Shown piece by piece: positions 3,234-22,371 of a stretch of 24,425 bases of DNA. Made by a program: the position numbers and the translations under genes. Under the pieces are notes generated by a model, which worked only from the letters and a program-made list of their open reading frames with translations, did no database searches and was not told where the DNA came from. Source of the stretch: a virus (Duplodnaviria > Caudoviricetes); the IMG/VR virus record IMGVR_UViG_3300017785_000115, positions 1 through 24,425 of that record. The stretch is one strand, 5' to 3'. Within the stretch, counting starts at the first letter, position 1; each line of letters starts with the position of its first letter.

Positions 3234-4802
3234 TTAGTTGATGCGGTAAACAATGAATGTGTTTGCCGCCGTTCTACGAATCCTGAACTGTCCAGAAATG
3301 TTGGTTGCAACAAGCGTTCTACCCACAATTGTCACGCCAGTATTTGCTGCTATTGTGATGTTGGCTGGCACTGAGTTGATGACATAAAAATCATACCCAA
3401 GGTCAACAGAACTCCAAGGGATAAGCGTTTCTAAAGTTGTCCCAAGAGGCAGCGTAACTGTATAAGCTGTTGCACCTGTCGTATTAACTATTTGCGCCAG
3501 AATGTCTGCGTTTGTTAATGTTGCCGTTGCAGTTATCGTTGATGGCGTTGGGCAGTAAACAACCGCTGCGCCAGAAACCATCTGTGAATTACCTGAAGAA
3601 TCAAATGATTGGCGGACGTTACCTTGACCGTCACTCAAAACAATCCAGTTGTTTCCTGTTGCAGAAATTGGCGCAGCAGCGCCTGTGTAGCTGCCAAGGA
3701 TGACGTTGTTGGAGCCAGTAGTAATGCCGCTGCCAGAATTTTGACCAAGCGCAGTATTTTGGCTACCAAGATTTTGTGTTAAAGCTGAATTTCCAATTGC
3801 AGTATTAAAGCCGCCCGTTTGATTGCTAAACAACGTACCATCACCTAGCGCTGTATTGCCATTGCCTGACAAATTTGAGCCTAGCGAGGTATTTCCAAAA
3901 GCTGTATTACTGGCTCCACCTACATTTAAAGCTAATGCGCCAGAACCCCCTGCCGTATTATTTGTTCCTGTCGTGTTTGCCGCCAAAGCACTAGCACCGA
4001 CAGCCGTATTAGTAGATACCGCCCCACCACCAAGACCAACGGTCACACCTTGAATTGTAAAGTTTCCGCTAACTGCTATGGTGGTTGTTGCACCCGACAC
4101 AGCGGAACCAATATTTATGCTTGTAATTGAACCAGATACACCCGCAGTCCCAAAATTTATTGTTTTGGTGCTTCCGCTTAGTGTGGGTCCAACTCCAACA
4201 TCCAATGTGTGCGTTGCTTGTGATCGGTCAACCGTAATGGTTCCGGTTTGAGGTATTCCACCAATCGTAATTGTTCCAGAGTTAGTTGCTGGCACAAATG
4301 ATGTTGAACCAGTAAATGTCTGTGATGTGTTTGCAAGCGTTGCAAGTGTGCCAGTTGCGTTTGGCAGTGTGTATGTGCGTGTTGTCGCAGTAGTAATACC
4401 AGAAAGTTCAAACAAAGCCTTTTTGGTGGTATCTGCATTGTCTTGCAATGTAAACTTGGTGTCATCAATAGAAAAAACGCCAGTAGTGTTGGCAATTGCA
4501 AACGATGCAGTACCATCCAACGCCTTGACGTTTGTAACCTCAAGGTTTGTTGTGTCTACACTTGTCAATCCAGTTAAAGCACCAGCATCACTCAAAATGC
4601 CAACGGAATTTTGAATTAACTTGCCTGTAGTGCCATCAAATCTGACAAGAGCATTGTCTGTTGAAGATGCTGGCCCATCCACATCACCATCACCCGCTGG
4701 ACCGGGGATGCCACGGTCAAGAATGACTGTTGTTGATGGAGTTGGTGTTACCTCAAGGGTAAGGTTGTTTGAGTCTTGAACGACTACGCTAATTGGCCCC
4801 AT
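3234..4802 (-). CDS. Tail fibre / receptor-binding protein
   Basis: 522 aa, Thr/Gly/Asn-rich. Short G-X-Y stretch (GIPGPAGDG), fibre-type segments and NTAxG...AL repeats. GGAG SD. Located after the tail-tip genes. Confidence 0.75.
   Translation of the reverse strand: MGPISVVVQDSNNLTLEVTPTPSTTVILDRGIPGPAGDGDVDGPASSTDNALVRFDGTTGKLIQNSVGILSDAGALTGLTSVDTTNLEVTNVKALDGTASFAIANTTGVFSIDDTKFTLQDNADTTKKALFELSGITTATTRTYTLPNATGTLATLANTSQTFTGSTSFVPATNSGTITIGGIPQTGTITVDRSQATHTLDVGVGPTLSGSTKTINFGTAGVSGSITSINIGSAVSGATTTIAVSGNFTIQGVTVGLGGGAVSTNTAVGASALAANTTGTNNTAGGSGALALNVGGASNTAFGNTSLGSNLSGNGNTALGDGTLFSNQTGGFNTAIGNSALTQNLGSQNTALGQNSGSGITTGSNNVILGSYTGAAAPISATGNNWIVLSDGQGNVRQSFDSSGNSQMVSGAAVVYCPTPSTITATATLTNADILAQIVNTTGATAYTVTLPLGTTLETLIPWSSVDLGYDFYVINSVPANITIAANTGVTIVGRTLVATNISGQFRIRRTAANTFIVYRIN
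3693..4010 (-). repeat. Six tandem ~17-aa NTAxGxxAL repeats in the fibre, plus a partial seventh
   Basis: NTAVGASALAANTTGTN / NTAGGSGALALNVGGAS / NTAFGNTSLGSNLSGNG / NTALGDGTLFSNQTGGF / NTAIGNSALTQNLGSQ / NTALGQNSGSGITTGSN / NVILG. Confidence 0.85.
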
Positions 4803-4811
4803 GATGACTCC

Positions 4812-5309
4812 TTAACTAATGTTGATAATGCCATCAGATCGAACAAGGAACATCAGAAAAATAATCAAATCATCCTGTGGAGTTCCTCCAGAAGCGGGAA
4901 AACTAACTTTGATTCGACCACTGAAACAAACAGGGTCAACCAAATCAATTTGCAATTCTGGATCGCCAGCAATGACAGACCATGCGCTGTCATCCAACAC
5001 AAGCGTAAATGTTCCCGCAATATCAATACGATTGGAAATTGTCAGGTTTACCGTTGTTGGGGTTGGCGTGTAATTGCCAATATCAAAGGACAATCCCGTT
5101 CGTGTGTCCTGTAGATTGGTGACAGTTCGCCTGACAATTTGTGCGCTGATTGTTGCGCCTGTCAAATCAATTGGAGTGCTTGGAAGTGTTGCGGTTGTTT
5201 TAAGCGCAAGATTCCAGTAAGTCTGCTGGTTGTAAACAAGCTCACCCGTAATGAGTGGATTGTCAAAACCCGAGACTTGGGTAATGACGTTTTGGCTAAA
5301 GACTGGCAT
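4812..5309 (-). CDS. Virion structural protein, probable fibre adaptor (BppU N-terminal-like beta sandwich)
   Basis: 'PIDLTGATISAQIVRR...GTFTLVL' pattern, seen in fibre-anchoring domains. Directly upstream of the fibre gene. Confidence 0.5.
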   Translation of the reverse strand: MPVFSQNVITQVSGFDNPLITGELVYNQQTYWNLALKTTATLPSTPIDLTGATISAQIVRRTVTNLQDTRTGLSFDIGNYTPTPTTVNLTISNRIDIAGTFTLVLDDSAWSVIAGDPELQIDLVDPVCFSGRIKVSFPASGGTPQDDLIIFLMFLVRSDGIINIS

Positions 5310-5317
5310 GAAAATTC

Positions 5318-5357
5318 CCTGTACTCAGGTGGTAACGCTCCCCATGTACTCACGGGG
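5318..5357 (-). promoter_or_regulatory. Twin hairpins with identical AGUA loops in the 5' leader of 4812..5309
   Basis: Minus strand CCCCGTG-AGTA-CATGGGG (5357-5340) and CCTG-AGTA-CAGG (5329-5318). The second hairpin covers part of the AGGGA SD and ends 8 nt before the ATG. Confidence 0.6.
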
Positions 5358-5384
5358 TACGAATGCTGTCTTGTCTTGTTTGGG

Positions 5385-5397
5385 ATTATCTCATATT
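5385..5397 (-). promoter_or_regulatory. Candidate late promoter motif, copy 1 (AATATGAGATAAT)
   Basis: Matches AATAYRRGAYAAT, also found at 16125 and 20863. GATAAT is -10-like with a TG extension, and TTGATG lies 18 nt upstream. Confidence 0.55.
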
Positions 5398-5410
5398 GAT
5401 GCAAAAGACA

Positions 5411-5881
5411 TCAAGATATACGCAACCAAAGAGAAACAAGGTTTTGTGATGGGGCGACTGAAGTTACACCCATACAGCGCCATGTGCCTGTTTGAACGGA
5501 GCCTACGTTATTTCCTGAAGCATTTGATGGTGTTAAATCAGCGCCAGAAACAGTTGTGCCAAAACTCACAAGCGGGGAAGCGCCGTTATATCGCGCCATC
5601 ATGTATGTGCCGACTGCTCCAGCAGTTGTTGATGGAGCCGGTGCAGCCGCAGATGTCCACGTTGTCCCGTTTGAAGTAAGCACGTTACCGTTTGTTCCGG
5701 GGGCAACAACTTGAGGCGCAGAGGTTCCATTGCCAAGCAGTACATTGTTAGCTGTCAGCGTTGTCGTTCCAATCCCGCCGTTTGCCACCGGCAAAGTTCC
5801 TGAAACACCGGCTGTCAGAGATACCTGACCGCTAGTGTTGACGTTGTTGCCAAGTAAGCCAAGATTGAGTGCTGCTGTCAT
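5411..5881 (-). CDS. Short tail-fibre-like protein
   Basis: 'GTLPVANGG', 'VLLGNGTSA' and 'GNVLTSNG' fibre motifs, with the tip-type C-terminus 'GTWRCMG...LWLRIS'. Confidence 0.65.
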   Translation of the reverse strand: MTAALNLGLLGNNVNTSGQVSLTAGVSGTLPVANGGIGTTTLTANNVLLGNGTSAPQVVAPGTNGNVLTSNGTTWTSAAAPAPSTTAGAVGTYMMARYNGASPLVSFGTTVSGADLTPSNASGNNVGSVQTGTWRCMGVTSVAPSQNLVSLWLRIS

Positions 5882-8800
5882 TTAAGCTGCTCCTGTTCGT
5901 TGATAAGTGGTTTGTTGAAGCATGGTGTTGTTTGTTGTTGGAGTGTAAGACAAAGCATAAACACCAGTTGAAGTTGTGTAATCAGTTCCTTGGTCAACCA
6001 AAGTTCCGTTTATATACAACTCAAAAGCATTTAAATCAAAATTGAAAGAATAGTTGGTAACTCCAACAGAAGTATTTGTTGTTCCTGTTTGCGATGCTCC
6101 CGCTGGAGTAGTCAAGATATTTTCAGCAAATTGTATAGAGGTTATAAGTCCGGTTACGTTTTGCGAAAAACTTAATGTCGTTGTCAAATCATAATCAAGA
6201 TCATTGACAGCAGTTCCATTAAAAAACAACTTCTCATATCCAGTGCGATAAGACCATTCGGTTGGAGTAAATAAAGATTGGTTTGTCAGACTATCTGTCC
6301 AACGGCTAAATGGTCTGTACGCTGAAGATGCGGCCCGATATTGATACACCGCATTGCCAGCCAATACGCCGCTTAATGTTGTTGTAAACGTGATTGTGCG
6401 TGTGGTGTAATTAATCGTTAATATTGTGTATTGCGTTGGTGTTCCAGTGTTGGCAAACGTGATTATGTCTCCAGCATACATTTTTTGATTAGGCAGTGCT
6501 GTGCTGGTGTAAACGATAGAACTTGCACCAACCGTTTGAACAATCAAACCAGTGTTGACAAAAGTAATTCCACTGGCAACTGCGCTCATACTGATGATGG
6601 ACACAAGTGTTCCAGCCGCGCAAGAAGTTCCAAGCGTAATTGTTGTAAGAATTTCTGTGTATTCCGATTCATCTAACAACATCCCATTGCGGAAAACAAG
6701 GCATTGCCCCAAGATGTAGCTTGCGCTTCTTGCAGTTGGCGTAAACACAGTTTGCCCTGCCGTTGCAATAACTTCATACAACGTGTAATTAAAATTATCA
6801 GGAGAAACAAACCCAAGCACACGACCATATTTATCAATAGTCAGTTGTGCAACCGCGCTAGTTTTTTGCGAAATGCCGGGTCCAAAATCCAACAACGTTG
6901 CCAACTCCGCAACAATTTTTCCGTCCGTACTGTTGGTTATTGCAATTTCACCAATGCCAGTTGTTGTTGTTCCCGTAGTAATAAGCTGACCTGTGCGAAC
7001 ATCAAGGTCAATCGTATTGTTTCCATCAGGCAGTGCCGACCAAATTGTTGGGTCATACAATGAAACGCTAGTTGGAACAAACGCTGCCGTTCCCGCAGCA
7101 TAAGCCGCAAAGTCAGTAGCAAAGCTAAATTTTCTACCACCTCTATTGCTAAACGCAAGGAATATGTTTGTGCCAAATGTCGGTTGTGCAAAATACCATG
7201 TGTAATTACTTGGGTCGCTTGAGTATGCTGGTGTTGTGTCGGTATTCCATAAACCAAAATAAGTTTTTCCCCTTGGGTTGTCTGAAATGCCGGTTCCCGT
7301 AATGCTTGTTGCGTAAGCCACCACAATATACCTCCCGGTAAATTGAAATGTGGTGGGCCTCCATTGAAGCACTGAACTTGCTGCGCTGTACTGACTTGAG
7401 CCAAGAGAGTTCACCATCCTGACAAAGAAATACCAGTTGCCTTGTGGAATGTTTTCCAAAGTCACAACACCCATACTTGAACCGGGCGTATATGGATTTC
7501 CAGCCGATTTCACCGCAGTGGTCCCGGCAAATATACGTTGAGGATCAGATGGTGCGCTAAATGCCGAATACCAAACTTCTGCGTATTGACTCACGCCACT
7601 TGATGCCGCCGTTACAGACACGCCAAATGATGGATTGGCGGCAGTCGGATTTAAATTAACTACCACTGGCGCATACATTGTGCCAAACACCAAAGGCGAT
7701 GGAATTCCAGTGTTTGGCGCTGGTGTAAATTGCGTGATTGGCGTATCGTCATACACAGTGGAGTTGTATTCAATCAACGTCAATGAAGCCGTAATTTGCC
7801 CATCATCACTAAAGTTTTCAGTGACTTGAGAAATCCTAAACAACTTGTTTGTCCAACCGTAATTTGGGCTAGTCAAGGTCACAATGTCGCCAGCCTCAAG
7901 TTGCAGACCAGCAAAACTAATTGTCACCTTCACAATCAAATCTTCACGCCCTGCTTTTAATAAACGTTGTGCGATGTATTGCGCTCGGACATCGCTGTTC
8001 ACCAAAGGCAACGTGACAGATTGCTTGTTGATTGGCTCATTTGGGTAAAGCAAAGTTGGCGCAACTTGAGAAAGACTAAACACCGCAGATGCAAACGTGT
8101 CTTTTTCGCTGCCATTTGCAAACTTGGATTCAATGATGTTTGGCGTACTAGACAAATCTGTTGGGGTGATTTGCAATGCTGACACCATGTTGCTGTCATC
8201 AATGGACAACGCCACTGCGTAAGTTGGCGATTGAACAATTACACCCCACTGGGCAGTTAATTCGTTGTAGCGTAACAAGCAATCACAAGATGCAGCCATG
8301 TTTTGCATGTTGCTCATAATACTCACGGATGTATCCAACACGCCATCAAACTTAAATCTTGTGATGGTTGCCGAACCTCCCGCCGCAGGGGTGTAGGTGA
8401 ATGCGCCAGCACAATACGAATTTAAAGTAGCAAGGCTTGTCGAATCGACTTGTGATGAAGGAACGCCAGCACCGTATCGCGTTGATTGCAGAAAATCACT
8501 AAAACAATCACCCGGCGCTGTCCTTGGGTTGTTAACTTGGAACCGAGTTTGTTGAATGCCCGTCAGTCCAGCATCTGCGTTATAAACCAATTTTACAATT
8601 GCAAAAGCGCAATTACTCATTAATTTGGTGTTATCCCAAACGTAAGCCAAATTAGGGTCGCTCATCAATGTAACGGCGTTTGTTGCGCTGTTTGTTGGTT
8701 GATATGACCCGTTGCGATACAAGTAGATAAACATGTTGCCATCTACGTTTGTTTGTGACTCGTTTGTTGACTCGTCAAGCAATGACACAACTCGTGTTTG

Positions 8801-14863: not shown

Positions 14864-15076
14864 TTACTCTGTTGTGTCTTGTGCAACTTCCTCAATAACC
14901 ACCACAGGGGCAGTTACGTTGTATTTTTTGAGCAGTGCCAAAGCAATAGCTTCAGCAGTGTCTGGTTTGGCTGTGGCTTTTGCAAGTTCAGCAGCGTCCA
15001 CCACCATGCCACGGGCGACAAGATCAATGTCCCCGTAGCTGGTCACAATCGTTTCAATTGCGTCAGTGACTTTCAT
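14864..15076 (-). CDS. Hypothetical protein, 70 aa (MKVTDAIETIV...)
   Basis: The likely start is ATG 15076, in a TGATG overlap with the tube-B stop, rather than 15130. Ala-rich and acidic. Confidence 0.65.
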   Translation of the reverse strand: MKVTDAIETIVTSYGDIDLVARGMVVDAAELAKATAKPDTAEAIALALLKKYNVTAPVVVIEEVAQDTTE

Positions 15077-15594
15077 CAGTTGTTCGACCAGCCGTACTGG
15101 TTGCCTCGCGGATGAACAGTGAAAGTGCATTTGGCTTCAGCACCGGGCTGAGAGTCTATCTGGAACTGGCCTACACGCCCGTTAAAGGCATAAGCAACAG
15201 TGTTTGTACCATCCACAGCAGCCACAACAAATGTGCGGTCTACAGTGCCAGAATAAGCGTCAGAACGGATTTGCAGCAAAGCCGAATCGGAAGGGTTCCA
15301 AGCCGCCGTAATGGTCAAACTTGTTGGAGCCGCCTGAACTGGAATCTTGTCGCTTTGACGAGAACCGGCAACACTGAAACTTGCCACCGCATCGTCCATG
15401 CCGAAAGCAGGGATTGCTTCAACAGGAACAGCAACACCAGCAGCGCCAGTGCCGTTTGCAGAAGTGCCAACAATGGTTGTGACTTGAGCCAGCCAAACGG
15501 ACAAGTTAGCAGTGGTCAATGGAGTTGGAGTTGCAGCCGATTGCATCCACAGCGAGGTGCTAAAACCGGGAAGAACTTTTGTTGGGATCGCCAT
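15076..15594 (-). CDS. Major tail tube protein, paralog B
   Basis: 172 aa, beta-rich; 'TSLTITAAWNPSD', 'YAFNGRVGQF', 'AKCTFTVHPRG' fit the tube fold. Strong TAAGGAG SD. Confidence 0.8.
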   Translation of the reverse strand: MAIPTKVLPGFSTSLWMQSAATPTPLTTANLSVWLAQVTTIVGTSANGTGAAGVAVPVEAIPAFGMDDAVASFSVAGSRQSDKIPVQAAPTSLTITAAWNPSDSALLQIRSDAYSGTVDRTFVVAAVDGTNTVAYAFNGRVGQFQIDSQPGAEAKCTFTVHPRGNQYGWSNN

Positions 15595-15603
15595 GTCAAC
15601 TCC

Positions 15604-16098
15604 TTAGACGTTGTTGGACCAACCGTACTGGTTGCCACGGGGGTGAATCGTAAAGGTGCATTTTGCTTCAGCGCCGGGTTGAGAATCAATTTGGAATTGA
15701 CCAACACGCCCGTTGAATGCGTAGTACACAATGTTTGCGCCTTCGGTGGCAGAAACCACGAAAGTGCGATCAATCACGCCAGAATAGGCATCTGCCCTCA
15801 TTAACAGCAAGTTGGTGTCGGAAGGGTTCCAAGCAGCAACAATGGTCATGCTGGTGGGCGCTGCTTGCACAGGGATTTTGTCCGATTGACGAGAACCGGC
15901 AACGCTAAAACTTGCAACAGCGTCATCCATGCCAAAAGCGGGAATTGCCTCAACAGGAAGCAAATTGCCTACAACAGCAATGGGAGAAACCGAGGCAACC
16001 AAAGACAACTGTGCAGTAGTCAAAGGAGTTGGCGTAGCGGTTGGCTGTGCGTATAGCGCAGCACTAAAACCGGGCAAGACTTTGTTTGGTAAGGCCAT
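15604..16098 (-). CDS. Major tail tube protein, paralog A
   Basis: 164 aa, directly after the tail terminator gene. About 75% identical to paralog B by hand alignment. AAGGA SD. Confidence 0.8.
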   Translation of the reverse strand: MALPNKVLPGFSAALYAQPTATPTPLTTAQLSLVASVSPIAVVGNLLPVEAIPAFGMDDAVASFSVAGSRQSDKIPVQAAPTSMTIVAAWNPSDTNLLLMRADAYSGVIDRTFVVSATEGANIVYYAFNGRVGQFQIDSQPGAEAKCTFTIHPRGNQYGWSNNV

Positions 16099-16906: not shown

Positions 16907-17578
16907 TCACATTACGAGGGGTTTGTAACTGCGTAAAAGCGTTGTCACGCCAAACGGAATGTCTTTCAATTTTGTCTCTGTCGCATTGGCTCGGTTGTTG
17001 TACAAGTGAGTCAGCAAAAGCAAGCCAGCCTGTTTAATCACAGGATAATTTGCCAATGGATTTGCAACAGTTGAATATTCCACAATGATTGGCGCAGACA
17101 TCACCGAATTCACATCAGTCGGCAAATTATTTACGATGACTTTATTACCCGAGGCATCGTAAAAATAATTGGTGTTTGTAATCGTTTGGAACACTGGCGG
17201 GAAAGCATCGTTCCAATAACCAACCGAATTAATTGTCACACCAGAAAGTGCCGGGTTTGTGTTTTGACTGACTTCAGGAAGATCAAGACTGATTGGTGAC
17301 GCTACAAGGCTCTCAGAACCGTACCAGACGCGATAAGTTACCGGGAGGATAGACATCCCCAAGTAATCCTCAATCGCCTGTCTGGTGGCGATTCCAAGGC
17401 TTGCAATGTATGTGTCCTGACTTGTATCGTCAAACAAGTTCAGTTGGTTGGTCATTTCATCAAGCGTCAACCATGCTGTCGAACTATCTCGTCCAATCTG
17501 CTCAACCTTTGCATAGTTGAACGGATTGCGTGTTTGCGCCCCAAAAGGCGCAGCGTATTGATAGTTGTCAACGCTCAT
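16907..17578 (-). CDS. Head-tail connector (HK97 gp6 / SPP1 gp15-like, long form)
   Basis: 'LTLDEMTNQL', 'AIEDYLG' and 'IKQAGLLLLTHLYNNR...IPFGVTTLLRSYK'. Confidence 0.88.
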   Translation of the reverse strand: MSVDNYQYAAPFGAQTRNPFNYAKVEQIGRDSSTAWLTLDEMTNQLNLFDDTSQDTYIASLGIATRQAIEDYLGMSILPVTYRVWYGSESLVASPISLDLPEVSQNTNPALSGVTINSVGYWNDAFPPVFQTITNTNYFYDASGNKVIVNNLPTDVNSVMSAPIIVEYSTVANPLANYPVIKQAGLLLLTHLYNNRANATETKLKDIPFGVTTLLRSYKPLVM

Positions 17579-17580
17579 GT

Positions 17581-18624
17581 TTAAGTCTCAATTGAACGAA
17601 CACCAGCAAAAACGTCACGCACAGAACTGACCATACGCTTTTCAGCATACATGGTCACAAAACCGGGCGTTGTCTGTTCCATTGCCTGAATGGTCATTTC
17701 TTCCACATCAGCAATGGTCATAAAACGAGGCCAGTTGGCAAGGTACATTGACTTGCAACCAACAACACCTGTTGCGTCCAAATATGGGTTTGGAATCACC
17801 GGGAATCCAAATACATGAAGCAACGAACCGGCTTCAGCGGAGCCAATGTCAATGAACGAGTAGCCGCCACTGCCGTGAGCATAGTTACGCAGGGTTTGAA
17901 TGGCTGTTGGGTGCATCATCCAAGCAGTACCCGGCATAGACCAGTATTGCGCTGGCAGAGCATTTGCCATTGCAGACAATGTTTCCGCTTCAAGGCCACC
18001 AGTGTTGTTGTACCCCACGGTAGCCAAAGTGTGCAAGCCGTTTGTAATCGCTGTGCCGCTTGTACCAAACGCAGCGGTTGCACCAGCAGCGCCGGGGTAG
18101 CTATTTAGGCCGCGCAAGCCATCAGTGCCACCAGTGGAGGTAGTGACTGAACCGGCTTGGTCATTGTTGAGGCCACACGATGCGCCCTCAAGTTGGGCAA
18201 ATTCCATCATTAGGTCTTCGACCAATTCGGCGTTCAGTCCATTGACATCCGACAGAACAGCCGAACGAACGGGCAATTGTGCAGAAATCACGCGAGTTGG
18301 CAATTGCCAAATGCTTGTGTTGATGTTGGGTGAACCACTGTTGGGGTTGACTGTGTAGCCCCAAGGGTTTGTGCTGTTTGCAGCGTTACCAGTTTTGCAG
18401 ACAAACTGAACAGCAGAATTTCCGGGTACTTTGATGTTTCGTGCGCCTTGACGAAACGGGTTGGCATATCGCAGGGCAGCAAATGCTTCATCAAAGTGAG
18501 TGCGACCACCGACATTCAAGCCTGAACCAGTGATGGCAGATGCCTCGCGCAAGTCAATCGTGACTCTATCGCCAGTTTCCAATGTTTGCTTAATTCCAGA
18601 CAGGATGCGTTCGGTGATGGTCAT
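17581..18624 (-). CDS. Second HK97-fold capsid protein (minor capsid paralog with a short N-terminal leader)
   Basis: 347 aa, colinear with the upstream MCP (GGRT, TSIWQL, NNDQA, GGT.GLRGL, AAFGTSGT, GLH.LAT, EKR...SVRD..AGVR). HK97 motifs 'AWMMHP' and 'FGFPVIPNPYL'. Own AGGA SD. Confidence 0.9.
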   Translation of the reverse strand: MTITERILSGIKQTLETGDRVTIDLREASAITGSGLNVGGRTHFDEAFAALRYANPFRQGARNIKVPGNSAVQFVCKTGNAANSTNPWGYTVNPNSGSPNINTSIWQLPTRVISAQLPVRSAVLSDVNGLNAELVEDLMMEFAQLEGASCGLNNDQAGSVTTSTGGTDGLRGLNSYPGAAGATAAFGTSGTAITNGLHTLATVGYNNTGGLEAETLSAMANALPAQYWSMPGTAWMMHPTAIQTLRNYAHGSGGYSFIDIGSAEAGSLLHVFGFPVIPNPYLDATGVVGCKSMYLANWPRFMTIADVEEMTIQAMEQTTPGFVTMYAEKRMVSSVRDVFAGVRSIET

Positions 18625-18647
18625 AACAGTTCCTAAATTGTTGGCAC

Positions 18648-18674
18648 AAAAAGGAGGGGGAATTACCCCCCTCC
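18648..18674 (-). terminator. Intrinsic terminator between the two capsid genes
   Basis: Minus strand GGAGGGGG-GTAATT-CCCCCTCC followed by TTTTT, starting 6 nt after the MCP stop. Confidence 0.85.
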
Positions 18675-18680
18675 GTTTTA

Positions 18681-20030
18681 TCAGGTCGATGTACCTGTCG
18701 AGCGATAGCGCACACCCGCATTCGGATCACGAACTGAGGTCGCAAGTCTCTTTTCCCCGTAAAAAGTAATACTTCCGGGTAAAGTTTGGTCATAGCGGCG
18801 CATAACCATGTTCAGCCTGTCTATGATTGTGTGAAAGCGCGAAAAATCAGCAAAATACATTGGGTACAAGCTGTTAGTGCCAGCAGCGCCAGTTGCGGCT
18901 TGGAACGGAGCATCAAGATACTTGTTCATCACCACATCAAAGCCCAACATTTGACCAATGATGCCTTCCGAATTCAACGACTCCATAGAGTTGAAGATTG
19001 GACGACCATTGGTGTCTTGCAGACCACGGATTGCTTGAGCCAAGATAGGGCTGACCATGAACTTAGCGTTTGCGGTCCAATACTGCTGCGGAAGTGCCAT
19101 CACCAAGTTAATAACGTCCTTGTATTGGATGTTGTTAGCGCCAACAGTGTTGCCGTTGGTGGTGATCTGGTCATAAGTAGCCAACGAGTGCAGACCGCTT
19201 GTAGAGCCAGTGCCAGAAGTGCCAAAAGCAGCAGCAGAAGTTGTCCCGCCAGTGTAAGTGGCGTTAGAACCAGCGTACTGATCCAGACCACGCAGACCGT
19301 TTGTGCCACCGTAGGGGTTGCTGACGGATTGTGCGGCTTGGTCGTTGTTCTGAATCATGGATTGGGCCTCGCTCATTGCGAATGAGGCCAGCATGTCGTC
19401 AACAACAACAGCTTCCAAACCATCAATGTCGTCCAACGCAGCAGTACGGATTGGGAACTGCACGTTCAGGTCTTGCATAACCAATTGCCAGATGCTGGTG
19501 TCTTCAGTAGTGGCTGCGCCGTTGTTCTGAATCGAATAGCCCCATGCTTCACCCGGATTGCCTGTGCGCACGCGAAACTGGTACGAGGAACCATCAGTAG
19601 CCACAGTGCGAGAGATACCGCGCATTGGGTTCAACAAACGCAAAGCCGTGAAGGTAGGATCGTAGCCAGTACGACCACCCTTGCCATCACCGCCAGCGGT
19701 CAAAGCAGAGGCTTCTTTCAGGTACGCATCCATTTGGCTTTCGTCTGCAAAGATTTGCAGTTCTTTTTCCAAACGGTTGTTGCCTTTGTAGAACTGGCTC
19801 AGTTGCTCACGCACCGAACGGTTCACATCTTGGCGAACAGTTTTTGCGGGTGTGCGAATGAATTCAGGCATTTGAATAGAAGCAACTTTGGCTTCCAGAG
19901 CAGACACCATCTCTTGCATTTCGGCTTTAACAGCCTCAACAGCAGCAGGGATTTTTGCTTCAACAGCGGTGATGCTTTCGGCTTGTTTAGCTTCGATAGC
20001 ATCCAATTTTTCGATGATTTCTTTAGACAT
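18681..20030 (-). CDS. Major capsid protein, HK97 family, with N-terminal delta (scaffold) domain
   Basis: 449 aa, ~105-aa coiled-coil N-terminus, then 'AKFMVSP...IRGLQDTNGRPIF...MLGFDV'. Follows the protease gene. Confidence 0.95.
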   Translation of the reverse strand: MSKEIIEKLDAIEAKQAESITAVEAKIPAAVEAVKAEMQEMVSALEAKVASIQMPEFIRTPAKTVRQDVNRSVREQLSQFYKGNNRLEKELQIFADESQMDAYLKEASALTAGGDGKGGRTGYDPTFTALRLLNPMRGISRTVATDGSSYQFRVRTGNPGEAWGYSIQNNGAATTEDTSIWQLVMQDLNVQFPIRTAALDDIDGLEAVVVDDMLASFAMSEAQSMIQNNDQAAQSVSNPYGGTNGLRGLDQYAGSNATYTGGTTSAAAFGTSGTGSTSGLHSLATYDQITTNGNTVGANNIQYKDVINLVMALPQQYWTANAKFMVSPILAQAIRGLQDTNGRPIFNSMESLNSEGIIGQMLGFDVVMNKYLDAPFQAATGAAGTNSLYPMYFADFSRFHTIIDRLNMVMRRYDQTLPGSITFYGEKRLATSVRDPNAGVRYRSTGTST

Positions 20031-20033
20031 GAT

Positions 20034-20834
20034 TCAACCTTTAAGTCGTTTGTCGAGGAGTTTTAGAAGTTCACGTTGCTCAAGAGCCGCGAGAATTTCC
20101 GCTTCGGTCGCTTCCGCATCAGAATCACTCTGTTGAGGCGCATTTTCAATGGGTTCAATCACAGCATCACGCTGCTCTAAAACTTTCTTGAATGTTGATG
20201 CGGCAGCGACCGCATCGCTCTTGGACAAGCCAGCATCCCGCAGACTTTCTTCCAAAACTTTTAAATCGGCAGAGCCATCAGGTCGGAAATACTCCAACTT
20301 TTTGATTTCTGCCTTGGTGTTATTTGGGTGCATGACCACGCTGGTTTCACGCAAGCCACCTTTGGTGATTTGGAAATAACCAGACTCGTATGGGTCATCA
20401 GAACCAATGGTCATTGCTTCGCCATCTTCCCTGACCCATTGATATTCTTCAGCGTAAGCACTGACAGACACGCCACCAAACATCATTGGCGACTCTTTCA
20501 TAACTTGGTAGAGGTCAGAGCCAGTGGTGGTGTTTACATACAAACGACCACAAGCGTTCATGCCATCGTCATCCATTTCAATGGAAGTCCACTCGCCGCA
20601 AGGAATGGAACTGTCATTGTGATTGACGTACATCGGGAGAGGACGACCACTTTTTGCGAAATCTTCTGCCCATTGCATAAAGCCTTCAGGCTTGTAGAAG
20701 AATTTACGTCCATCAGCGCCTTCCCGAGCGCCCCAAGTGGTAACGCGAGCCTCAATCAAACCTGTCGGTTCGCCGTTCTCGGCTTTTTCCGTCAAGTTCA
20801 ACTTGGCTTCGCAAATTAGATTCAATGTCTTCAT
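20034..20834 (-). CDS. Prohead maturation protease, HK97 family
   Basis: 'LPMYVNHN' (His), 'GGVSVSA' (Ser), 'LRETSVVMHPNN', and C-terminal 'LEESLRDAGLSKSDA'. Confidence 0.92.
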   Translation of the reverse strand: MKTLNLICEAKLNLTEKAENGEPTGLIEARVTTWGAREGADGRKFFYKPEGFMQWAEDFAKSGRPLPMYVNHNDSSIPCGEWTSIEMDDDGMNACGRLYVNTTTGSDLYQVMKESPMMFGGVSVSAYAEEYQWVREDGEAMTIGSDDPYESGYFQITKGGLRETSVVMHPNNTKAEIKKLEYFRPDGSADLKVLEESLRDAGLSKSDAVAAASTFKKVLEQRDAVIEPIENAPQQSDSDAEATEAEILAALEQRELLKLLDKRLKG

Positions 20835-20973: not shown

Positions 20974-22371
20974 TCAAGTTTTACCAATGTTCATCTTTTT
21001 GGTCTGATTTCCACCGCCGCCACCAGTATCTTGGGCGCTTGAGCCGGGTACAGGTTCGGCTGGCTTGGCATCTTTGACCAACTCGTCACCACCTTCCACA
21101 GAGGAAAGGTTCATATAATTGCGAGCCTCGTTGGGGGTCATAATGCCACCAGAAACGCCAGCAGTGGCAAAGTTCATTTGGTCCAATGGAGCGCCTTTGA
21201 GGAAATCCTTGGTGTCAAATTCCACGCACAACGATGGGTAGCCCTCCAGCAAGTGAGCAGTCAGTTTTTGTTGAATGTTCACAATGGTAGGGTACATGGT
21301 GGTCTTGTAAAACTCGTCCAAAGCCGTTTGGCTGTTGTTGAACTTGCCATCATGGATGCCAATCATAGAAGGCGGCACACCGAACAAGCCGCAGATTCGG
21401 CGCATGGTTTGCAACTTCAATGCCGCAGCGTCAGCGTCTTGCAGGGTCAACATGTCCAGCTTCTGATACTTCATGCCTTGGTCGAGCAGCATGGATTGAC
21501 CCGGCTTGGACGGATCGGACTGCTTGGACCCGACCATGTTGTTCCATGTCTCCTTCAGACGAGCCGCAATCTCTTTGAACTTGCCATCAGGAATGACTGC
21601 TTCGGTCACAAACATTCCAGATGGTTTGGCGCCATTCTGCATAACGTAATTGGCGTACAAATCAATGTCTTGGTCCAAGCCAACCAACTCGGTTGCCAAA
21701 ATACCTTTGTTAAAACCAGCAGAACCCTGCCAAGCCATTTCCTTGCCATGCATGACTTGGAAATACTTGAATTCATGGTCTTTGTTAAAGCCGTAGGAGG
21801 GCGTAGACAGCCTAAATGTAGGGTAGCGAGTGGGCGTGATGTTCACTGCAATCAGCGTTGAATCCAGCACATACATTTCCAGCGGAGTCTCGGTGGAACT
21901 GTTCTGGTCTTTCCTCCACCACAGGGTAAAGGCTTCACCAGACAACTCGTACCACATCAGCCACTGATACCAAAACTCGTATTTCGACTGGAAGTTGTTG
22001 GGGTGTCCCAATAGTTTGGCAACTTGCTTGGCTTTGGCTTTGTCTCTTGGGCCAACACCCTCACCACGAATCGCATCAACGGTTTTACCGTCTGCTGTCT
22101 CGCAGCAAATCTTGATTGGCAACTGCGCCAGCGCCCGAGCCTTGACCCCAATACAGGACATAACAGTGCTGTTTCGTGTCAGCACCGACATGTCCACCGG
22201 ACGACCAGCATTTGTGGTGCTGGCAGTGGTGACATAGAGGATTTGGGTATTTACACCAGCACGTTTGTCACTTCCTTGATAGACAATGTTATTGCCCAAG
22301 GCTGTCTGACCGAACAATGTATTGCTCTCAGACTGAGTGTTTTTGCGCTTGAAAATGTCAAAAATTGCCAT
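20974..22371 (-). CDS. Portal protein, HK97 family
   Basis: 'VMSCIGVKARALAQLP', 'PNNFQSKYEF', 'NGAKPSG', 'ICGLFGVPPSMIG' and 'GIMTPNEARNYMNL...GGDEL'. Confidence 0.96.
   Translation of the reverse strand: MAIFDIFKRKNTQSESNTLFGQTALGNNIVYQGSDKRAGVNTQILYVTTASTTNAGRPVDMSVLTRNSTVMSCIGVKARALAQLPIKICCETADGKTVDAIRGEGVGPRDKAKAKQVAKLLGHPNNFQSKYEFWYQWLMWYELSGEAFTLWWRKDQNSSTETPLEMYVLDSTLIAVNITPTRYPTFRLSTPSYGFNKDHEFKYFQVMHGKEMAWQGSAGFNKGILATELVGLDQDIDLYANYVMQNGAKPSGMFVTEAVIPDGKFKEIAARLKETWNNMVGSKQSDPSKPGQSMLLDQGMKYQKLDMLTLQDADAAALKLQTMRRICGLFGVPPSMIGIHDGKFNNSQTALDEFYKTTMYPTIVNIQQKLTAHLLEGYPSLCVEFDTKDFLKGAPLDQMNFATAGVSGGIMTPNEARNYMNLSSVEGGDELVKDAKPAEPVPGSSAQDTGGGGGNQTKKMNIGKT

What the first reader, a model, noticed from the sequence alone, without database searches (positions are those of the whole stretch)
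17581..20030. Second HK97-fold capsid gene behind a terminator: candidate dedicated vertex (penton) protein
Seen: a 449-aa MCP with a delta domain, a GC-rich hairpin with a U5 tract, then a 347-aa full-fold paralog with its own SD but no long scaffold domain. The two are in different frames and the first ends TGA TAA, so they are not a read-through fusion. Established: HK97-like siphophages build hexons and pentons from one protein, while T4 uses paralogs gp23 (hexons) and gp24 (pentons). Inference: partial read-through of the terminator yields the minor paralog in lower amounts, as a vertex protein would need (55 of 415 subunits if T=7).
Basis: partly seen in the sequence, partly recalled or inferred. 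Interest (0 to 1): 0.8.

Follow-up and report, generated by a model that had tools for sequence, protein, structure and literature searches.

The report
Swappable second capsid gene, likely corners
A large group of freshwater tailed phages always carries a second, trimmed copy of the head-shell gene right behind the main one; it likely builds only the five-fold corners of the head, as shown so far in a few other phages, and very different versions of it sit beside an identical main shell protein.

Summary
Observation confirmed. A 449-aa HK97-fold capsid gene (M1) is followed by a terminator-like hairpin and a 347-aa paralogue (M2, 40% identical, no long scaffold). M2 follows M1 in 232 of 237 related loci; the other 5 are cut by contig ends. 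The pair is also in cultured phage P19250A. M2 is under purifying selection, forms one old clade, and keeps M1's putative maturation glutamate (224/225). Its axial domain is shorter than its partner's in 199/199 pairs, as in the solved penton proteins of Jabs and Nocturne116. Identical M1 cores pair with M2 alleles only 65% identical (axial domain about 45%), which fits M2-only rings better than mixed ones. Best reading: a dedicated penton protein (0.7); its position in the virion is untested. Two-protein siphophage heads are already in print (2026). The terminator is conserved (216/232) but not M2-specific, since single-capsid HK97 has a putative one at the same place. This scan reached the same reading earlier on other genomes. 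New member of a known, rare kind, and directly testable.

The parts
18681..20030 (-). M1, major capsid protein precursor, 449 aa, HK97 fold; likely the hexon protein
   Evidence: PF05065, phrog_10, AF2 and Foldseek; role inferred
19713..20030 (-). M1 delta-like scaffold region, residues 1-106, ending in YLKE before ASA (putative maturation site)
   Evidence: Long helices; E at the junction in 212 of 213 M1 sequences; cleavage not shown
18678..18683 (-). Tandem stops TGA TAA ending M1
   Evidence: Sequence
18648..18674 (-). Intrinsic-terminator-like hairpin (9 bp, 7 GC) with U5 tract
   Evidence: present with at least 4 T in 216 of 232 loci, controls 0
18631..18634 (-). AGGA Shine-Dalgarno-like site 6 nt before the M2 ATG
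   Evidence: Sequence; AGGA/GGAG/GAGG present in 130 of 232 loci
17581..18624 (-). M2, second HK97-fold shell paralogue, 347 aa; likely the penton (vertex) protein
18544..18624 (-). M2 short N-terminal peptide, residues 1-27, ending DLRE before ASA (same junction motif as M1)
   Evidence: E in 224 of 225 M2 sequences, [LIMV]xE in 215
17725..18033 (-). M2 axial (A) domain region, residues 198-300: trimmed loops, most variable part
   Evidence: Shorter than the partner M1 in 199 of 199 pairs; dN 0.39 for residues 201-280 vs 0.077 for residues 28-165; mapped to HK97 gp5 255-333 by hhalign (HK97 domain limits recalled)
20034..20834 (-). Prohead serine protease (S78), the likely processing enzyme for M1 and M2
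   Evidence: PF04586; substrates inferred
20974..22371 (-). Portal protein
   Evidence: PF04860
16907..17578 (-). Head-tail adaptor Ad1, directly after M2 and behind the same terminator
   Evidence: phrog_40 and phrog_442

Best explanation
M2 is likely a dedicated vertex protein that forms the 11 pentons of the head, while M1 likely forms the hexons and supplies the scaffold. Shown: both genes are intact HK97-fold paralogues from one old duplication, always together, both under purifying selection, with a conserved terminator-like hairpin between them. Inferred: M1, upstream of the hairpin, is made in bulk and organises the prohead through its 106-residue delta region. M2 is made from read-through transcripts together with the neck and tail genes. 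[quoted passage not shown] The S78 protease then clips both proteins at the shared (L/M/I)xE|AS junction. Because the M2 axial domain would touch only other M2 subunits, it is free to drift and the whole gene can be swapped as a cassette.
For: (1) Obligate pairing: 232 of 237 distinct M1 3' ends are followed by M2 and the 5 others lie within 190 nt of a contig end; 222 of 235 M2 have M1 upstream and 13 lie at a contig start. (2) One clade: 34 of 34 M2 rows group at SH-aLRT 100, and 24 M1-type rows at 95 (quick tree). (3) dN/dS medians: M2 0.09, 0.13, 0.21 and M1 0.11, 0.13, 0.12 in three dS bins. (4) The axial region is 10-24 aa shorter than the partner M1 in 199 of 199 pairs (median 107 vs 123), while N-arm, spine and P-sheet segments have equal median lengths. 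Jabs MCPp has a markedly smaller axial domain and Nocturne116 VP a shortened A-domain tip loop. (5) No long scaffold and placed directly after the MCP, as for those two. (6) The junction glutamate is kept in both families; T4 gp24 likewise loses a short 10-residue peptide. (7) Of 421 locus pairs with M1 cores at least 95% identical, 62 have M2 cores under 75%; of 267 pairs with M2 at least 95%, none has M1 under 75%. L027 vs L123: M1 core 100%, M2 65%, axial region 46%, with sharp DNA boundaries around M2. A-domains pack within a capsomer. (8) In the four tailed-phage cases read here (T4, Jabs, Nocturne116, SaPIbov5 Ccm), the second HK97-fold protein sits in the pentons.
Against: No direct evidence that M2 is in the virion or pentameric. 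M2 lacks the reduced E-loop and near-absent N-arm of Nocturne116 VP: its E-loop tip is equal or 3 aa longer. It is far closer to its MCP (40%) than the solved cases (18-24%), so mixing with M1 is more plausible here. Two-component encapsulins tile irregularly. Only 4 of 25 multi-member M1 clusters contain more than one M2 type, so the swap count rests on few events. M2 dN/dS rises to 0.21 at high dS and 0.33 in the axial region, which could be relaxed constraint. The terminator is not specific to two-protein heads.
Confidence: 0.7

Rival explanations
1. M2 is a minor shell protein mixed at low frequency into hexons and pentons (irregular tiling), tuning stability or displaying extra domains.
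For: [quoted passage not shown]
Against: M2 alleles with axial regions only 43-47% identical work with an unchanged M1, although A-domains pack against capsomer neighbours. Loop trimming is one-directional in 199 of 199 pairs. M2 is never lost.
Confidence: 0.12
2. M2 is a size or shape determinant in the manner of SaPIbov5 Ccm, or builds a special site such as the ring around the portal. M1 can still make pentons, and M2 competes for vertices or marks an alternative head.
For: Ccm is an MCP homologue that takes the pentamers and redirects head shape while CP can also form pentamers. The Nocturne116 authors link VP to prolate shape.
Against: M2 sits in the phage's own head operon and was never found alone in the loci held (0 of 235). 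Nothing here points to two head sizes or to portal contact.
Confidence: 0.1
3. M2 is not a structural shell subunit but an assembly aid or decoy (for example for a host capsid-sensing defence), and its variable axial domain reflects conflict with hosts.
For: Allele swapping and fast axial-domain change.
Against: The full fold, all inter-capsomer elements and the junction glutamate are kept. In one subgroup M2 carries an N-terminal domain that elsewhere heads a protease-capsid polyprotein, as expected of a processed shell protein.
Confidence: 0.07
4. M1 and M2 form a read-through or frameshift fusion, or M2 is a decaying duplicate.
For: Adjacent paralogues only.
Against: Frame offsets are 136/56/40 over 232 loci; tandem stops; six loci have a 600-700 nt insert between the genes; purifying selection.
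Confidence: 0.01

Closest known systems
Mycobacterium abscessus siphophage Jabs MCPh (ORF72, hexons) / MCPp (ORF73, pentons), T=9 (bioRxiv 10.64898/2026.07.24.740622; abstract, passages and section 5 read)
   Same: Adjacent genes, processed MCP first; the second lacks the long N-terminal maturation domain and has a smaller axial domain
   Different: 18% identity there vs 40% here; MCPp is modelled from residue 3 (no clipped peptide), while M2 keeps a 27-aa peptide with M1's junction motif; Jabs uses disulfides, while M2 cysteines are not conserved; penton position is shown there, inferred here
Lactococcus phage Nocturne116 MCP (ORF18) / vertex protein VP (ORF19), c2-like phages (PMC13595954; passages read)
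   Same: Small siphophage, VP gene right after the MCP, no scaffold or protease domains, shortened A-domain tip loop
   Different: VP has a much smaller E-loop and almost no N-arm, whereas M2 keeps both; prolate, cross-linked head; 24% identity; in c2 the l5-l6 gap is 19 bp vs 54-77 nt with a hairpin here
T4 gp23 / gp24 (PMC9958956; passages read)
   Same: Paralogue from a duplication; long propeptide on the hexon protein (65 aa) and short one on the vertex protein (10 aa), both removed by the prohead protease
   Different: Large prolate myovirus, about 20% identity, separate scaffolding core; M2 is much closer in fold to RcGTA/HK97 (Z 21.9/16.7) than to gp24 (Z 12.3), so the origin is likely independent
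SaPIbov5 Ccm (PMC8569155; passages read)
   Same: MCP homologue that fills only pentamers
   Different: Encoded by a satellite against a helper phage, has an 87-aa delta domain and redirects head shape; M2 is in the phage's own operon
Methylophilaceae phage P19250A, KX815270, gp5 (4600-5988) and gp6 (6066-7124)
   Same: Cultured member of this same group: 57% and 56% identical to M1 and M2, same gene order and hairpin
   Different: gp6 is annotated only as hypothetical; one tail-tube gene, not two

Membership tests
Dedicated vertex (penton) proteins: T4 gp24, Jabs MCPp, Nocturne116 VP | HK97-fold paralogue of the phage's own MCP | tested here: met
Dedicated vertex (penton) proteins: T4 gp24, Jabs MCPp, Nocturne116 VP | Occupies only the five-fold vertices of the virion | not testable with these tools
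   Needs cryo-EM or a pentamer-vs-hexamer model; five copies exceed the complex tool's size and copy limits
Dedicated vertex (penton) proteins: T4 gp24, Jabs MCPp, Nocturne116 VP | Present in virions at about 55 copies | not testable with these tools
   No proteome of P19250A found; the original isolation paper was not held
Dedicated vertex (penton) proteins: Jabs MCPp, Nocturne116 VP | Gene directly after the MCP, without long scaffold or protease domains | tested here: met
   232 of 237 loci; N-terminal peptide 18-33 aa vs 94-123 aa in M1-type rows; one subgroup has an extra 100-aa N-terminal domain
Dedicated vertex (penton) proteins: Jabs MCPp, Nocturne116 VP | Reduced axial domain / shortened loops | tested here: met
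   Shorter in 199 of 199 pairs by 10-24 aa; domain limits by alignment to HK97 gp5 and recalled boundaries
Nocturne116-type VP | Much smaller E-loop and almost no N-arm | tested here: not met
   N-arm segments equal (12+17 aa); E-loop segment G79-W106 is 27 aa in M2 vs 24 in M1
Jabs-type MCPp | About 25 degree bend in the spine helix | not tested
T4 gp24-type | Short N-terminal peptide removed by the prohead protease | tested here: inconclusive
   Junction E in 224 of 225 M2 and 212 of 213 M1; cleavage itself not shown, and the site is inferred from position
Satellite-encoded Ccm | Encoded without its own MCP on a parasite element | tested here: not met
   0 of 235 M2 stand alone in the loci held; 13 are at contig starts; loci are mostly viral contigs
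Frameshift or read-through capsid variants (T7 10A/10B type; recalled) | Fixed frame relation giving one extended protein | tested here: not met
   Offsets 136/56/40; own start and SD-like site; inserts between the genes
Two-component encapsulin (irregular tiling) | Mixed shells of variable composition | not testable with these tools
   Abstract only; indirect evidence against from allele swapping

The most novel reading that the evidence does not exclude
The vertex of these abundant freshwater phages is a plug-in module. One hexon protein accepts many interchangeable penton alleles (30 M2 types vs 11 M1 types at 80% identity), whose axial domain and grafted extras are under selection for diversity. 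The extras include a tail-fibre-like beta domain in the E-loop, a beta domain in the loop after the spine helix, and an N-terminal domain likely left inside the head. Corners would then be a display and cargo platform at 55 copies per particle, exchanged by recombination much as receptor-binding proteins are.
Probability: 0.25. Interest if true: 0.75.

Novelty: new member of a known kind. Interest (0 to 1): 0.48.

Why it matters
Both 2026 structure papers call a penton-only paralogue unusual in small tailed phages, and one says its benefit is unclear. This group shows it is likely fixed in a large, common freshwater lineage, by an independent duplication still recognisable at 40% identity, with a cultured member (P19250A). 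That makes it a clean system to ask how quasi-equivalence is split between two proteins, which surfaces must stay compatible, and why the vertex allele turns over while the hexon protein does not. It would also correct the annotation of hundreds of 'hypothetical' or duplicate MCP genes.

Tried and rejected
RNA evidence: 12 runs were listed, all as Logan contigs with shares of 0.05-0.21. Four were laid. Coverage was fragmentary, the strains mixed and no ends were called, so it says nothing on read-through or levels. Sequence search of solved structures: 0 hits for M2 and only RcGTA for M1 at significant E; the fold search was needed. Promoter scan: 17 sites vs 15.5 expected, so no support for a separate promoter behind the terminator. 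Scans with the distant alignments A3 and A4 could not find seed motifs in two of three tries, and P0128 returned one truncated M1-type locus. The most distant M2-like proteins (P0126-P0129, P0135, P0137, P0139, P0142, P0150) therefore have no genomic context, and their pairing is assumed. The careful tree did not finish; the quick tree is quoted. Alignment A2 contained two M2-type rows by my error (P0128, P0142; 2 of 77); it was used for the M1 model and the M1/M2 classifier, but not for the counts, where these two are labelled M2. Disulfide stabilisation as in Jabs: rejected, as cysteines are not conserved. A literature search for post-capsid terminators returned 0 papers; the HK97 GenBank annotation was used instead. 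MAG host labels (Betaproteobacteria, Methylophilaceae, Burkholderiaceae, but also Mycobacterium, Nitrosotalea, Bacteroidetes) are mixed and probably partly mis-binned; not used.

Full report
Setting. The window is a 24.4-kb linear virus record, about 65% complete. On the minus strand it carries a siphophage morphogenesis operon: terminase, portal, S78 protease, M1, M2, adaptor, two further neck-region genes, two tail-tube-like paralogues and a tape measure. The only match among 50,697 annotated phage records, for either capsid gene, is Methylophilaceae phage P19250A. It has the same order and annotates the second gene as hypothetical. A passage in bioRxiv 10.1101/2020.04.27.064238 describes it as a siphovirus of freshwater LD28.

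Observation.

Conservation. Loci came from five viral scans and one genome scan, each capped at the best 80: 79 loci of 447 confirmed stretches, 80 of 288, 80 of 590, 1 of 1, 80 of 84, and 10 of 10. They are therefore a sample, and many are near relatives. Of 237 distinct M1 3' ends, 232 are followed by M2 and 5 end within 190 nt of the contig end. Of 235 distinct M2, 222 have M1 upstream and 13 start at a contig edge; none stands alone. A hairpin with at least 4 T follows M1 in 216 of 232 loci, against 0 in three controls. Frame offsets are 136/56/40, so there is no fusion. In a quick maximum-likelihood tree of 74 rows, all 34 M2-type rows form one branch (SH-aLRT 100) and 24 M1-type rows another (95), which points to one old duplication.

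Selection. Over 91 sequence pairs, median dN/dS was 0.124 for M1 (2770 of 4095 comparisons with dS 0.1-1.5) and 0.166 for M2 (2079 of 4095). At matched low and middle dS the two are alike, and M2 is higher only at high dS (0.21 vs 0.12). The excess lies in M2's axial region: dN 0.39 vs 0.077 for residues 28-165, whereas M1's axial region is as conserved as its core (0.074 vs 0.084). M2 is not decaying.

Anatomy. In a joint alignment of 213 M1 and 225 M2 sequences (20 of them distant proteins without context), the N-arm, the spine helix and the P-domain sheet have the same median lengths in both families. Three loops are about 8-9 aa shorter in M2, two in the axial region and one just before it. 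The axial region is shorter than the partner's in 199 of 199 pairs. The domain limits rest on an alignment to HK97 gp5 and on recalled HK97 boundaries. Both families keep a glutamate at the end of the N-terminal extension (212/213 and 224/225), mostly as (L/I/M/V)xE followed by ASA. I read this as a shared maturation site; that reading is inferred from position, and the likeness to the T4 protease consensus is recalled. Some M2, and no M1, carry 70-85 aa inserts: in the E-loop (P0125, L213, L220, L305, L306; matching a tail-fibre PHROG) or after the spine helix (P0128, P0137, P0139, P0142). Twenty-two loci have a 100-aa N-terminal domain on M2 (phrog_2859). The same domain begins an 880-aa protease-capsid polyprotein in other phages.

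Swapping. Among 198 unique pairs (19,503 comparisons), 62 of 421 comparisons with M1 cores at least 95% identical have M2 under 75%; the reverse is 0 of 267. L027 vs L096 or L123 and L036 vs L105 have M1 cores 100% identical and M2 65-68%, with axial regions 44-47%. L027 and L123 are 96-100% identical in DNA on both sides of M2 and 49-78% inside it. These comparisons are not independent: 4 of 25 multi-member M1 clusters hold more than one M2 type. Since A-domains pack against neighbours in the same capsomer (PMC8569155, passages), an unchanged M1 that tolerates such different M2 axial domains fits M2-only rings better than mixed rings. This is an inference.

Mechanism. The likely picture is: bulk M1 upstream of the hairpin makes the hexons and the scaffold; M2 from read-through RNA makes the pentamers; shared outer elements join them; the protease clips both. 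If T=7 (assumed from the 38.7-kb P19250A genome vs 39.7 kb for HK97; HK97's T number is recalled), the need is 55 vs 360. The terminator fits this but does not indicate it. HK97, with one MCP, has a putative terminator annotated right after gene 5; c2 has a 19-bp gap before its proposed vertex gene; and the neck and tail genes lie behind the same hairpin, with no promoter signal above chance. RNA contigs were uninformative.

What is known. Jabs (abstract, passages, section 5) and Nocturne116 (passages) are siphophages with a penton-only paralogue next to the MCP, lacking scaffold and with a trimmed axial domain. T4 gp24 (review passages; abstract of PMC10580926) and SaPIbov5 Ccm are also pentameric. 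A two-component encapsulin tiles irregularly (abstract) and is the model for the main rival. M2 differs from the Nocturne116 VP in keeping its N-arm and E-loop, and from all these cases in its high identity to the MCP. I did not find this phage group's second capsid gene described in the listings. Of the 8 papers naming P19250A, 6 were listed and one was read in passages. The isolation paper was not held, and supplements of the Jabs preprint were not seen; either may bear on head shape or prior notice.

Earlier notes of this scan. A sequence look-up found nothing. A word look-up listed eight unchecked AI notes on other genomes, seven on tandem HK97-type capsid pairs and one on a T4-like gp24 duplicate; several concern freshwater phages and give the same vertex reading. 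My reading was recorded before I saw them. They are not independent support.

Verdict. Real, conserved and functional. Most likely a dedicated penton protein (0.7), and a new, probably independent member of a rare known kind. Interest is moderate: the kind is in print and the key step is untested, but the group is large, has a cultured member, and shows cassette-like exchange of the second gene.

Noticed in passing
window 15604-16098 and 15076-15594 (-): Two tandem tail-tube-like paralogues, 74% identical (phrog_158 for the second). Two copies in 59 of 130 related loci with enough downstream DNA, one copy in 70, none in 1; P19250A has one. Optional, unlike M2.
   Followed up: partly
L022 6066-6698, L024, L055, L056, L102, L302 5360-5992: An ORF of about 200-220 aa inserted between the M1 terminator and M2 in six loci. 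It resembles a GIY-YIG homing endonuclease (motif recalled); NUMOD3 in L302, no Pfam hit for L022.
   Followed up: partly
P0123; L234-L256 in part, L219, L296-L309 in part: M2 fused to a 100-aa N-terminal domain (phrog_2859, unknown function) ahead of the junction motif; the same domain heads an 880-aa protease-capsid polyprotein in L310-L312.
   Followed up: partly
P0125, L213, L220, L305, L306; P0128, P0137, P0139, P0142: M2-type proteins with 70-85 aa beta-rich inserts in the E-loop or after the spine helix; none seen in M1.
   Followed up: partly
L002, L013/L090, L055, L064/L100: Contigs holding a second, inverted and diverged copy of head genes, e.g. L002 3272-7703; possibly chimeric assemblies of related phages.
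   Followed up: no
L229 (JBAQTC010000002.1, 229-kb contig of a Burkholderiaceae MAG): The M1-M2 pair lies on a long bacterial contig, a possible prophage and host lead.
   Followed up: no
window 16907-17578 (-): The head-tail adaptor is long (223 aa), with family matches at both ends, suggesting an inserted middle domain.
   Followed up: no
L150 4491-5843 and L271 258-1672: M1 is split into two ORFs in these two contigs; sequencing error or a broken gene.
   Followed up: no
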